Assembly: GCA_000320545.1 (NCBI GenBank)
Contig: ADNK01000139.1
Location: 1-42,199 of the forward strand
DNA: 42,199 bases
Direction of reading: 5' to 3'
From: Bigelowiella natans CCMP2755
Taxonomy: Eukaryota > Protista > Cercozoa
In this document: positions 1,626-6,716 of the stretch, piece after piece
Layout of the letters: the number at the start of each line of letters is the position of its first letter
Position numbering within the stretch: position 1 is the first letter of the stretch
Translations under genes and position numbers: made by a program
Notes under the pieces: model-generated
What the model saw: the letters and a program-made list of their open reading frames with translations, nothing else
What the model was told of the DNA's origin: nothing
The model's database searches: none

Positions 1626-4600
1626 ATGTCCACCGCAGAGACACTCAATCTAATTTTGGAGCGCTTGAAAGTGCTCGAAGCGAAAGTCGACGGCCGGAAA
1701 TCGAAAGGAGGTGTCTATTGGCAGAATAATTTTGGTAATATGTATCTTCTGATGCCTTATGTCAATTGAAGGTGTGAAAAAATCAAAGCTTGAGACTGCA
1801 TTAAAAGCCGCTGATGAGAAGATCACTCGCAAGGACATTGATGATATTCGCATCAAGGAAATCGTGCCTGTGGTCCCACCCCACTGTCTTCTGGAAGTAC
1901 GTTCTTCTTCAATAGTCTCAATTAAGCCTTTACTCCCCCCAATATAACAATTCGATGTATCTACAGGAGCTAGTCCCAAGCGAGGAGGTGGCAGAACATG
2001 TCATGGCAGGAAGGCATAACATAAGTCAAATCCTTCAAGGTGAAGATGATCGCCTCTTTGTAGTCTGTGGTCCATGCTCTATTCACGATGTCAAAGCAGC
2101 GAAAGAGTATGCTGCTAAATTGAAGAAAACAGCTAAAGCTCTTGAGAAAGACCTTTTCATCATCATGAGGGTTTACTTCGAAAAACCCCGGACGACAGTT
2201 GGCTGGAAGGTAATAAAAATACCAGAAGAATGTTATCTTCCTTCGGGAGAGGGGACTTTTTTTTTTTTCAATCATTCTGCCGCTTTTTATTGAACTCATC
2301 GTTTTTTCTAATGGCAATATCGGTGCTTCAGGGCCTAATCAATGATCCTCGGTTGGATGGGTCCTATCGCATCAATGAAGGCCTCCGAACTGCGAGAGGA
2401 CTATTGTTGGATCTTAATGAACAGGGTGTTCATGCAGGTCAACAATCTAACATCTTCTCACTAAAGAAGGAGAACCATGCCGACAAAAATGTAGTCTCGC
2501 CCGCCTGAGTAAGGTCAACCTCAGGTGTCGAGTTTTTGGATACAATTTCTCCACAATTCATGGCTGACCTTGTTTGCTGGGGAGCTATAGGAGCACGTAC
2601 AACAGAGAGCCAGGTTTGTTCAATGGAGGCTGTATGTATCCATACAAAAATTGATTCTCATATTCACCATAATCATTTTCATCATTCTCCTCTTGTTGAT
2701 CGTCATCATCTTCTTCATCATCATCATCATCATAGGTTCACCGTGAATTAGCATCTGGTATCTCTGCACCTATTGGATTCAAGAATGGAACCTCTGGAAA
2801 CCTCAAGATTGCAGTTGATGCATGTCAGTCCGGAAGGGGGGCACACTCTTTTCTCTCGGTGACAAAGCAGGGAATGGCGGCTATCGTTCACACTAAGGGT
2901 AACAGTGCATGTCATGTTATCCTTCGTGGCGGCCAAACACCAAGCGGGGATTATGAAAGAAACTATGATCAGCATGCTGTCAAGAAAGTTGATGACATGA
3001 TGAGCCAAAGAGGCCTTATACCGGCAGTGGTTGTCGATTGCTCTCATGCTAACAGCTGTAAAAAGCACACAAACCAACCTATCGCTTCGAAGGACATTGC
3101 CCAGCAAGTTGCGAAGGGAAGTGAAACAATTAAGGGAGTCATGATAGAGTCGCATCTTGTAGAAGGAAATCAGAAGTTGAAACCTGGAAAAACGGATCTA
3201 AATTCTTTGGTGTATGGATTAAGTGTGACGGATGCGTGCATCGATTTTAAGGTGTGAAGCAATAGTTGTGATGATGATGGTGGTGATGATGATGATGATG
3301 ATAGTTCGTCGTTAACAAAGAAAATATAATGCGGTGGTAGGTAGGTAGGTAGGTATATTTTTGTGGTTTCTGTGTAGCTATATCTTCGTCTTCTAATGTA
3401 GAGTGAGGTAGTAGAGGGAAAAGCTTTCTTATCGCATCGATGACGACATTGATGATATTTTTCCTGAATGATACTATAAATTTAGACAACAGAAGCAGTA
3501 TTGGAAGAACTTGCAGCTGCAGTACGTGAGAGGCGTAAAATGAAGAAAATCGCTGCAAAAGCTCCAAATTCCCCTAAACTGACAGCAGAACCGGTCGTCG
3601 ATGATGCCAAGTTTCAGTACAAAGAAAGGTATTACGTATGTGGAAGTAAGTAGTCACGTAAACAACAAGTCACTAGTCACTAGTCACCACTACTACTACT
3701 ACTATAACTACTATTACTGCTGCTATTGCAACTACTACTGAGCACGCATCAACATCATTCGTCCCTAACAAATTGACTCCTTTGTTACCCTATCCTTTTC
3801 TTCCTTCCTATTCTTATTCACTAAAGTTTGAGCGCTATTTATCGTTGGACGGACGACATTCACATCAAAAAGATTTCTCCGTTACTACCTCCTGAATGTA
3901 TGCATAGGGAAATACCTTGCACGGAAGATGTAATACAATAGTTACAACAATAATGACAACTATGGCACTAATTGATAGTAGTAGTAGCACACGACTATAA
4001 TGATGATGATGATGATGATGATGGTGATGATGCATAGGTAAGTAAGAAAATAACAATTAACATGCGAGTGGTGGAGGAAGAGGAAGAGGATAAGATATTA
4101 AAATTGTAGTCAAATTCATTCTAAGAATGATGATATCTGTTAATGTACTGAGTAGTAGTGTATGTTTAGTCTTATTATCTTGATCCACCCCCCTCCATCT
4201 ATCCATCCTCACACAAAGATTGCGAAGACAGTTTTTGAGGCAAGAACAGCCATATCTGACATTTTAGCCGGAAGAGATGACAGGTCAGTGCCACTGCTGC
4301 TACATTATAATATCTTACAATGATGATAATAATAATAAGCTGTGGAAGATACTGGTGATGTAATATTCAAATTCGCAATGGCTGCTACTGTACAAAAGAA
4401 GAAGATGGGGATGATCATGATAAAAAATGATCAAGTTGTATCATTGTTATTGTTAGTAATAATTTAATTTGAATACTATTATCTCCTCCTTAAATGTTCT
4501 TCTTCTTCTTCTTCCTCCTCCTCCTCCTCCTTTGGTCATTGCGTGCTTACTTTCTAGGGTTGTGGTGATTGTCGGTCCCTGCAGCATCCATGATACCAAA

Positions 4601-6716
4601 GCTGCAGTCGAATATGCGAAAATGTTGAAAGAAGTACGAGATGAGCTGAAACAAGATCTACACATTGTGATGCGCGTTTACTTTGAAAAGCCCAGAACAA
4701 CCGTTGGATGGAAGGGATTGATCAATGATCCCGATCTAGATGGCTCCTTTAAAATCAATAAAGGACTTCGAATTGCCAGGAAGCTTTTGGCTGATCTTGC
4801 TCGCATGGGTCTTCCTGCTGGTGTAGAGTTTCTAGATGTCATGTCTCCTCAATACCTGGCTGAATTTGTTTCTTGGGGTGCAATCGGAGCAAGAACGACA
4901 GAAAGCCAGGTTGTTTCGTTTGTTATCAGAAAGGAGAAGAGAGGAAAAGAAAGAGAATTTGATATTTGATGATGTTTCTTTTATTATTAACATCAATACA
5001 TCTTACTTCCTACTTATCTAACGACAGATTCACCGAGAACTTGTATCTGCCCTTTCCGCACCAGTGGGTTTCAAAAATGGGACCTCAGGAAATGTCAAGG
5101 TGGGTGGTGAATAATGAAGGAATGCCAGTTAACGATCATATCCAACACTTTTCTTGTTGTTATAACAACTAAATTAGTAGTCGTCAGAAGAATAGGAATA
5201 GTAGCAGTAGTTGTAGCAACTGTAGAGAGAGGTGGAAGAAGAAGAAGAAGAAGAAGAGAGACTAGTAATCATGACACAATCGTCTTAGTAGTATTATCAC
5301 TCGTTATTAGAACGAATTCCTCATCATCATGCTGCTTCTACTACTGCTGCAATGTCGTCGTCCGTCCTCCTTCAGGTTGCAATTGACGCGTGCACATCTG
5401 CCACATGCCCGCACAGCTTTTTGTCGATAACGAAGCAGGTAGCTAGTAGTAGGCGTCGTTTTAGCTAGTAGTAGTAGTTGCAGCTCTTAATAATATAGAG
5501 AAGAGAGAGTCTCCAAAGTAGTATCAGTGTTGTTCGTACAAGGGTTATGGTAGATGAGAAGAGAAAGGAAGGATAAAAACAACAACAACAACAACAAGAA
5601 GAAGAAGAATTAGTAGTAGTATAGGATGAAATAGATAGAGGATCCAGAAGTAACTTCTTATTTGTCAAGAAATGGTAACGATAACCATCACGACGTTTTA
5701 TTTATTTAAAAACTATTGTGGACTTACATTAACGTATGCGTTATTTCGTCGTTGTTGATGATGATGATGATAATAGCGGATGATGATGGTTGTCTATTGT
5801 TGTTGCAATACTAGTATCACTATTATTTGCGATAATCATCATCATCGTCAAATGATGTATGAATCTTATCCACCTCCACAGGGTCTCTCTGCAATTGTGC
5901 ATACTAACGGAAATCCAAACTGCCACGTGATTCTGAGAGGAGGAATGTCAGGAAAGATGTACTTCCAAAATTATGATGCTGACACGGTACGTGCATACTA
6001 CTCCTACTACTATACCTAGTAAAAGGAGGAGGAGGTGGTAGCACTTGTAGCATGGTTATTGCGTTGGAAGGCATCAGCAAAAAATAAATTATATTGAAAT
6101 CAAAGATTTTTTTGGAGTAGTATTACTGTGATCAATGTTATCGCTATTCGCTCCTTGATCTTGACTTCCTTTCTCTTTCATTCGCGTGCTTGCAGGTATC
6201 GAAGGTTGCTTCAAAGATGGAAGGAGCTGGCCAAATACCCAATATTATGATCGATATGTCTCACGCCAATTCCTGTAAGGATCATAAGAACCAGCCCAGT
6301 GTGTGTAAAGCAGTCTGCAAGCAGGTCATCGAATTTGTGTTGTTTGTACGTCTCTTCTATCCTCTATCAATCTTCATCATCATCACCTAGTTTTAATTGT
6401 TGCTGTCAATGAATTTGGTTGTCAATCATCAACGATTTGATTTTGTGCTTGGTATTCATTATTATAATTATCCCATCATCATCCCATCATCTATCATCAG
6501 ATCGCAAATGATCAGAAAGGATTAATGGGTGTGATGATCGAGTCGCATATTAATGAAGGAGCTCAAAAACTTAAACCAGGACAGACGGATGTTTCTGCTC
6601 TCAAATACGGTGTCAGTGTAACTGATGCTTGCATGGACTTTGAAACTACAAAAGTGCAGCTTAAGAATTTGGCATCAGCTGTTCGTGCTCGTCGTCAAAA
6701 AAGAAAACAACAGTAG
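1626..6716 (+). CDS. Tandem two-domain type I-alpha DAHP synthase (AroF/G/H, ARO3/ARO4 family), ~803 aa, 15 exons
   Basis: Exons 1626-1710, 1772-1896, 1967-2209, 2332-2437, 2525-2613, 2736-3251, 3486-3628, 3827-3929, 4219-4283, 4558-4909, 5028-5099, 5376-5438, 5882-5986, 6196-6324, 6501-6716. All introns are GT-AG, phases match, total 2412 nt. Each half carries DDIx[58 protein letters not shown], DxSHANS, MIESH, YGxSVTDAC. Confidence 0.93.

What the first reader, a model, noticed from the sequence alone, without database searches (positions are those of the whole stretch)
1626..6716. Single-chain double DAHP synthase: two full catalytic barrels fused in one ORF
Seen: domain 1 ends ...[11 protein letters not shown] and continues with no stop through [38 protein letters not shown] (phase-2 intron 3629-3826) into [16 protein letters not shown], the start of domain 2. 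There is no Met in that exon before the domain start. Both domains keep the metal and substrate ligands (Cys of GPCS, KPRT, His of SHAN, Glu of IESH, Asp of TDAC). Established: type I-alpha enzymes are ~350-370 aa single-barrel subunits that oligomerise, with feedback isoforms usually encoded by separate genes. Inference: a covalent pseudo-heterodimer that could integrate feedback in one polypeptide. I do not know of a characterised example.
Basis: partly seen in the sequence, partly recalled or inferred. Interest (0 to 1): 0.78.

Follow-up and report, generated by a model that had tools for sequence, protein, structure and literature searches.

The report
Algal double-barrel DAHP synthase
This alga makes the first enzyme of aromatic amino acid synthesis as one protein holding two complete copies of the enzyme, a layout shared by six related algae, and the second copy's feedback pocket is altered so that it likely responds less to phenylalanine than the first.

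Summary
Confirmed. Window 1626-6716 is one 15-exon gene with an uninterrupted 803-aa ORF holding two type I-alpha DAHP synthase domains, about 60% identical, each with 13 of 13 catalytic residues. RNA contigs from 3 runs (2 studies) splice across 3629-3826, and 3'-biased reads pile only after domain 2. The same tandem occurs in six other chlorarachniophyte algae (75-81% identical). It predates their divergence and probably arose by internal duplication (96/92 support in one tree, not recovered in a smaller one). AlphaFold2 places the two barrels confidently (pTM 0.86), consistent with a covalent copy of the family's functional dimer. Domain 1 keeps a phenylalanine-type feedback pocket. Domain 2 carries fixed, mostly bulkier substitutions there, one matching a known feedback-resistance change, so I predict partial phenylalanine feedback rather than two-amino-acid sensing. 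This is untested. Separate tandems exist in other protists, including catalytically dead haptophyte doubles that keep the pocket. Six literature searches and two scan look-ups found no description; the scan had not found this before on other DNA. New variant of a known enzyme.

The parts
1626..6716 (+). Gene for an 803-aa tandem type I-alpha DAHP synthase, 15 exons (1626-1710, 1772-1896, 1967-2209, 2332-2437, 2525-2613, 2736-3251, 3486-3628, 3827-3929, 4219-4283, 4558-4909, 5028-5099, 5376-5438, 5882-5986, 6196-6324, 6501-6716)
   Evidence: Pfam PF00793 on 4 of 4 barrel exons tested
1635..1691 (+). N-terminal amphipathic helix (about aa 4-22) with heptad leucines and an R-h-x-x-h-E motif (aa 13-18); no signal-peptide-like hydrophobic stretch, so the protein is likely cytosolic
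   Evidence: motif in 7 of 7 chlorarachniophyte proteins against 0.27% of random 25-mers; helix 4-22 in the orthologue model; best 11-residue hydropathy 0.7-1.43
1840..3539 (+). Domain 1 (aa 52-406): complete barrel, 13 of 13 catalytic residues, AroG-like feedback pocket
3540..3851 (+). Linker (aa 407-444), interrupted by intron 3629-3826; first part variable and predicted disordered, last ~12 residues conserved and predicted helical
   Evidence: length 32-37 aa in 7 of 7 species; pLDDT under 50 at 412-430 and helix 433-439 in the orthologue model
3629..3826 (+). Phase-2 GT-AG intron whose removal joins the two domains in frame
   Evidence: joint in 3 of 3 RNA-contig runs at contig depths 687, 157 and 412; not listed in 2 DNA runs
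3852..6698 (+). Domain 2 (aa 445 to about 798): complete barrel, 13 of 13 catalytic residues
4838..5051 (+). Domain-2 pocket substitutions fixed in all chlorarachniophyte domain 2 copies (AroG numbering V147, M148, E155, F156, A178; also V/I176, and I212 further downstream)
6717..6847 (+). 3' UTR ending at a poly(A) site near 6847
   Evidence: 22-A loose end in run X16 and read pile at 6538-6925 in run X21

Best explanation
One spliced gene encodes a single 803-residue protein with two complete DAHP synthase domains, which are predicted to fold against each other like the two subunits of the family's normal dimer, with domain 1 likely inhibited by phenylalanine and domain 2 likely less sensitive. 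Shown: one ORF, splicing across the junction, full catalytic residue sets, conservation in seven chlorarachniophytes and fixed divergence of the domain-2 pocket. Inferred: (1) origin by internal gene duplication before chlorarachniophytes diversified (about 0.75); (2) both halves catalyse PEP + E4P to DAHP in the cytosol (about 0.85); (3) pairing within one chain, each domain's N-terminal Asp-Asp segment completing the other's pocket (about 0.75); (4) the bulkier domain-2 pocket binds phenylalanine weakly, so feedback is partial and flux to tyrosine, tryptophan and other chorismate products continues when phenylalanine is high (about 0.5). Fusion fixes a 1:1 mix of unequal halves, which a homodimer cannot provide.
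For: RNA joints and 3' read pile. Six named orthologues of 705-803 aa at 75-81% identity. 13 of 13 catalytic residues in 13 of 14 chlorarachniophyte domains; the Amorphochlora domain-1 model lacks internal segments. D1-D1 80%, D2-D2 80.5%, D1-D2 59%. D1 and D2 clades 100/100 and joined at 96/92. Shared rare characters: an 8-9 residue loop (7 or longer in 7 of 415 singles), Cys272 in 12 of 12 domains against 3 of 415 singles, and one shared intron position. AlphaFold2 pTM 0.86, pLDDT 89 for the Norrisiella orthologue, with both N-terminal strands formed. The tight dimer is the catalytic and allosteric unit (PMC4735112, passages), and the pocket includes the partner's N-terminus (PMC10349828, passages). 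4 of 11 literature pocket positions are fixed D1/D2 differences against 29 of 345 overall, P=0.009. M148, E155, F156 and A178 occur in 4.1, 0.7, 3.9 and 2.9% of 415 intact singles. AroH V147M (= position 148) is feedback-resistant and AroG M147I partly resistant (PMC9529685 section 15).
Against: No activity or binding data. Domain 2 keeps D6, D7, D146, P150, Q151, S180, F209, S211 and K214 in 7 of 7 species, so it may still bind phenylalanine. M148 also occurs in 17 of 415 ordinary singles and in both halves of P0122. The V147M precedent concerns Trp in AroH, not Phe. Strict conservation of the changed pocket could mean a new ligand rather than loss. In a 34-row tree D1+D2 was not recovered, and D2 with labyrinthulid-like (p-AU 0.40) or proteobacterial enzymes (0.21) was not rejected. 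The model is of an orthologue, coordinates could not be inspected, and AlphaFold2 can recall the solved homodimer. Contigs are not single molecules. Whether the organism has other DAHP synthases is unknown (no genome held).
Confidence: 0.5

Rival explanations
1. Regulation is ordinary. Both halves are phenylalanine-inhibited, and the domain-2 changes are drift or interface co-adaptation after fusion removed the need for symmetry; the fusion persists for stability or dosage.
For: Amino-acid backbone-binding residues are kept in both pockets. Domain 1 also has 5 rare fixed states against 8 in domain 2. The recent-looking doubles P0121-P0123 have halves 77-86% identical with near-identical pockets, so fusion can exist without pocket asymmetry.
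Against: Fixed differences are enriched in the pocket (4 of 11, P=0.009). The M148+A178 pair appears in none of 415 other intact singles.
Confidence: 0.27
2. Two-signal integrator: domain 1 senses phenylalanine and domain 2 senses tryptophan, tyrosine or another metabolite, possibly with synergy across the interface.
For: The remodelled pocket is invariant in 7 of 7 species and shares A178 with Trp-sensitive AroH. The amino-acid anchoring residues are retained.
Against: Domain 2 lacks AroH's Gly150 and AroF's Gly211. Six of its seven pocket changes enlarge a side chain, which argues against room for Trp. M+A at 148/178 is not the AroH pattern (V+A).
Confidence: 0.18
3. The halves are two separate tandem genes, and the long ORF is an annotation or assembly artefact.
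For: An in-frame Met follows domain 1 (3540), and intron read-through would stop at 3651. Tandem repeats do cause mis-assembly in this family (P0238, P0150).
Against: Spliced junction in 3 runs with zero depth in the intron, and 3' reads only after domain 2. Continuous ORFs with a 32-37 aa linker in 6 other species, none with that Met.
Confidence: 0.02

Closest known systems
E. coli AroG and Neisseria meningitidis DAH7PS (Phe-sensitive type I-alpha; PDB 1n8f, 1kfl, 4hsn, 4uc5)
   Same: 56-59% identity of each half to AroG; same catalytic residues; model superposes at TM 0.96-0.98 of the target chain, rmsd 0.8-1.6 A; domain 1 pocket is AroG-like.
   Different: These are about 350-aa single barrels forming homodimers and homotetramers. 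Here two non-identical barrels lie in one chain behind an extra N-terminal helix. None of the 21 PDB sequences matched is longer than 376 aa.
E. coli AroF/AroG/AroH isoenzyme trio (and yeast Aro3/Aro4, recalled)
   Same: Two or more diverged type I-alpha catalytic units in one cell, with differences concentrated in the feedback pocket.
   Different: These are separate genes and homo-oligomers with Tyr, Phe or Trp determinants. Domain 2 has neither AroF's Gly211 nor AroH's Gly150.
DAHP synthase-chorismate mutase and ACT-domain fusions (type I-beta regulatory fusions; PMC12202928 listing and one passage; the rest recalled)
   Same: A fusion to the barrel that can shape regulation.
   Different: The partner there is a non-DAHPS domain; here it is a second catalytic barrel.
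Unnamed tandem DAHPS proteins of other protists (active P0121, P0122, P0123; degenerate haptophyte doubles P0422 Prymnesium parvum, P0428 Pavlovales)
   Same: Two PF00793/TIGR00034 matches in one chain (P0121-P0123, P0422; P0428); the P0422 model has pTM 0.85.
   Different: Separate clades; one clade of chlorarachniophyte plus haptophyte-type doubles was rejected at p-AU 0.02. Their pockets are symmetric, and the haptophyte family keeps only 0-5 of 13 catalytic residues.

Membership tests
Type I-alpha DAHP synthase (AroF/G/H; TIGR00034, PF00793) | Profile match over a full (beta/alpha)8 domain | tested here: met
   Window exons hit PF00793. Orthologue P0003 hits TIGR00034 at 981 bits in 2 stretches. 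Each window half aligns to AroG 5/6-349.
Type I-alpha DAHP synthase (AroF/G/H; TIGR00034, PF00793) | Metal ligands C61, H268, E302, D326 and substrate residues R92, K97-P-R-T100, E143, R165, K186, R234 (positions recalled, identities read from the AroG locus) | tested here: met
   13 of 13 in both window domains
Type I-alpha DAHP synthase (AroF/G/H; TIGR00034, PF00793) | N-terminal extension and beta6a/6b hairpin forming the allosteric site | tested here: met
   Asp-Asp N-terminal segment and hairpin residues present in both halves; strands 55-60 and 444-449 and both hairpins in the model
Type I-alpha DAHP synthase (AroF/G/H; TIGR00034, PF00793) | Single-barrel subunit of about 350-370 aa forming homo-oligomers | tested here: not met
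   803 aa with two non-identical barrels: each domain is a member, the chain is a variant
Type I-alpha DAHP synthase (AroF/G/H; TIGR00034, PF00793) | Measured DAHP synthase activity and feedback inhibition | not testable with these tools
   needs enzyme assay
Phe-sensitive (AroG-like) pocket | D146, P150, Q151, D155, G178, S180, F209, S211, K214 | tested here: inconclusive
   Domain 1 has 9 of 9; domain 2 has 7 of 9 (E155, A178) plus V147, M148, F156
Tyr-sensitive (AroF-like) pocket | Gly at position 211 | tested here: not met
   Ser in both window halves
Trp-sensitive (AroH-like) pocket | Gly150, Val148, Ala178 as in E. coli AroH | tested here: not met
   Domain 2 has only Ala178; it has Pro150 and Met148
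Short trimeric coiled coils with the RhxxhE motif | R-h-x-x-h-E in heptad register (definition from PMC5940361 passages) | tested here: met
   7 of 7 N-termini; this is a sequence motif only and does not fix the oligomer state
Nucleus-encoded plastid-targeted proteins of chlorarachniophytes | N-terminal signal peptide (bipartite leader; recalled) | tested here: not met
   Charged, amphipathic N-terminus, best hydropathy window at most 1.43 in 7 of 7 (a simple scan, no dedicated predictor); no upstream in-frame Met in ORF 1530-1769

The most novel reading that the evidence does not exclude
The chlorarachniophyte enzyme is a natural single-chain, asymmetric DAHP synthase whose two pockets read different effectors, a new allosteric class for this enzyme, further assembled by an N-terminal coiled coil. 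Self-fusion of this dimer has happened at least three times in protists, and in haptophytes it decayed into a catalytically dead, pocket-only aromatic amino acid sensor.
Probability: 0.2. Interest if true: 0.8.

Novelty: new variant of a known kind. Interest (0 to 1): 0.58.

Why it matters
DAHP synthase is a textbook model of allostery and the main engineering bottleneck for aromatic compounds. Known type I-alpha solutions to three-way feedback use separate isoenzyme genes. A natural covalent dimer with unequal halves would let each active site and each pocket be mutated on its own, making cross-subunit signalling in the tight dimer directly testable, and it may show a one-gene route to partial feedback. 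The repeated origin of the tandem and its dead haptophyte version add a clean case of homodimer to fused pseudo-dimer to pseudoenzyme.

Tried and rejected
No whole genome is held, so paralogues (other type I or plastid type II DAHPS) were not counted. Three copies of the N-terminal 50 residues of P0003 were folded as a complex: no answer (0.24 against a mark of 0.32, controls not folded); this is neither for nor against oligomerisation. The protein atlas gave no answer. Metatranscriptome runs X18 and X20 held only short pieces, in 10 and 4 of 30 bins, and none crossed the junction; not used. P0238 (926 aa, Lotharella) repeats one block and P0150 joins the start of P0121 domain 1 to the end of domain 2; I read both as assembly artefacts and excluded them. 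P0125 is a 1.5-domain bacterial chimera. One origin for all doubles was rejected (p-AU 0.02 for one clade; 3e-5 for all domain 1 copies; 36 rows, LG+G4). The careful tree left out 17 of 75 rows, including long branches. A tetramer-interface charge switch (domain 1 E24, domain 2 R/N24 with E25) was judged ambiguous. Richards et al. 2006, Light and Anderson 2013 and Kammerer et al. 2005 are not held, so I could not check whether the first mentions a tandem. Scan look-ups returned nothing relevant.
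Full report
OBSERVATION. The window is intron-rich eukaryotic DNA of about 40% GC. Choosing GT-AG sites by coordinates gives 15 exons from ATG 1626 to TAG 6716 and an 803-aa ORF without stops. Domain 1 is aa 52-406, domain 2 is aa 445 to about 798, and they are 61% identical over 353 aligned positions. In 3 of 3 RNA-contig runs (2 studies; kind guessed as RNA by the tool, and behaving as spliced RNA) 13 of 14 introns are listed as joints, including 3629-3826. 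One 1.9-kb contig per run covers exons 1-11, and depth inside that intron is zero. The one raw-read RNA run (about 6% read, 605 reads laid) piles at 6538-6925 (depth 55-80) and gives 0-0.1 at 3240-3821, so no 3' end is seen after domain 1; a poly(A) tail appears at 6847. Two DNA runs cover 30 of 30 bins without these joints. Caveat: contigs are not single molecules.

DISTRIBUTION. A search with exon 6 among longer proteins listed 120 of 7,972 hits. The top six are 705-803 aa proteins of Gymnochlora, Chlorarachnion reptans, Norrisiella, Partenskyella, Lotharella globosa and Amorphochlora, 75-81% identical to the window model. The window is therefore from a chlorarachniophyte alga; the species was not determined (Bigelowiella is my guess from recall). 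A full-length search listed 120 of 780 hits, of which 10 cover at least 92% of the query: those six plus P0121-P0124. A profile search of 1.84 billion representatives listed 150 of 9,169 hits, with 6 two-domain proteins. Of 517 proteins held, 45 have two domain-scale matches, near-duplicates and the window model included. No PDB chain among the matches is a double.

ORIGIN. Domain 1 copies are 80% identical to each other, domain 2 copies 80.5%, and domain 1 to domain 2 59% (6 species), so the tandem predates these species and both halves are equally constrained. In the careful tree (58 of 75 rows, LG+C20) the two clades (100/100 each) join at 96/92, and at SH-aLRT 96 in the 75-row quick tree. 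Against this, a 34-row quick tree did not recover the join, and AU tests did not reject domain 2 grouping with labyrinthulid-like or proteobacterial enzymes (p 0.40, 0.21). Shared rare characters favour duplication: an 8-9 residue loop where 405 of 415 singles have 3-5, Cys272 in 12 of 12 domains against 3 of 415 singles, and one intron at the same codon in both halves. The 415 singles are search hits, not a random sample. Other protist doubles form separate clades, and a single clade of chlorarachniophyte plus haptophyte-type doubles was rejected (p 0.02).

MECHANISM. Both halves keep 13 of 13 catalytic residues (positions recalled; identities checked on the E. coli AroG locus). In type I-alpha enzymes the tight dimer is the catalytic and allosteric unit (PMC4735112, passages seen), and the Phe pocket includes the N-terminus of the partner subunit (PMC10349828, passages). 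AlphaFold2 on the Norrisiella orthologue (88-row alignment, only 7 rows covering domain 2) gave pLDDT 89 and pTM 0.86 with a disordered linker. A pTM this high for two equal domains implies a confident mutual placement (inference). I could not inspect coordinates, and the program may recall the solved homodimer. Of 345 positions, 29 are fixed differences between the halves; 4 of them lie among the 11 pocket positions listed in PMC9529685 (section 15 read), P=0.009 (positions are not independent). Domain 1 keeps the common states. Domain 2 has V147, M148, E155, F156, V/I176, A178 and I212, and six of these seven enlarge the side chain; positions 156, 176 and 178 were added by me. That paper reports AroH V147M (position 148) as feedback-resistant and AroG M147I as partly resistant. 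Neither half has the Gly211 of AroF or the Gly150 of AroH. I therefore favour a narrowed, weakly Phe-sensitive second pocket giving partial feedback (0.5), over ordinary symmetric regulation (0.27) and a second ligand (0.18). The retained anchoring residues in domain 2 are the main evidence against my reading.

N-TERMINUS. All 7 proteins begin with an amphipathic helix carrying R-h-x-x-h-E, a motif of parallel trimeric coiled coils (PMC5940361, passages). Related coronin coils can form tetramers instead (PMC8554105, passages), so the assembly state is open. There is no signal-peptide-like stretch, so the enzyme is likely cytosolic.

LITERATURE. Six searches aimed at this architecture or lineage (listings seen) returned no description of a two-barrel DAHP synthase. 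The single phrase hit concerns a homodimer interface (PMC12202928, one passage), and passages of PMC11843938 and PMC11528492 did not mention one. The library lacks most subscription papers, including Richards et al. 2006 on the eukaryotic shikimate pathway (nothing seen); no supplements were read. The proteins themselves are already in public databases under generic names.

VERDICT. A real, conserved and apparently undescribed architecture of a well-known enzyme: new variant of a known kind. Fusion of a homodimer into one chain is a familiar evolutionary route (recalled), which limits the surprise. The fixed pocket asymmetry and the parallel dead doubles raise it. Interest 0.58.

Noticed in passing
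Proteins P0422 (Prymnesium parvum), P0428 (Pavlovales sp.), P0124, P0239, P0274, P0417-P0442 and cluster members: A family of tandem DAHPS-like proteins, haptophyte where named (2 of 25), in which all 50 domains keep only 0-5 of 13 catalytic residues but on average 13.8 of 15 residues of a Phe-pocket consensus I defined after seeing the alignment (intact singles 12.1). The P0422 model has pTM 0.85. It is a candidate pseudoenzyme aromatic amino acid sensor, yet databases label several as active DAHP synthase. Sister to the active doubles P0121/P0122 (98/93). Deserves its own study.
   Followed up: partly
Protein P0123 and members P0396, P0397 (1119 aa, unnamed metagenome contigs): A weak TrpD (anthranilate phosphoribosyltransferase)-like domain fused to two DAHPS barrels that are 86% identical; a third, separate tandem lineage.
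   Followed up: partly
Proteins P0121, P0122 (821 and 872 aa, unnamed): Active-looking doubles whose halves are 77-80% identical with long identical stretches, suggesting recent duplication or gene conversion; P0150 looks like their collapsed assembly.
   Followed up: partly
   Followed up: partly
window about 1964-1969 and 3906-3911 (AroG positions 24-25): Domain 1 keeps the Glu of the E. coli tetramer salt bridge (E24) in 7 of 7 species, while domain 2 has Arg or Asn there with Glu at 25; the halves may differ in higher-order contacts.
   Followed up: no
window 76-813 (-), 7690-8799 (-), 13884-14882 (+), 34678-35688 (+): Long open frames with no Pfam match. By eye, 13884-14882 resembles a beta-propeller glycoside hydrolase and 7690-8799 a membrane protein (recalled resemblance, untested).
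   Followed up: no
window 24936-25457 (-): Weak match to AA_permease_C (E 2e-5, below cut-off): probably an exon of an amino acid transporter gene.
   Followed up: no
Protein P0369 (1059 aa): A eukaryote-looking protein with an N-terminal region resembling prephenate dehydratase (by eye) fused to one DAHPS barrel.
   Followed up: no
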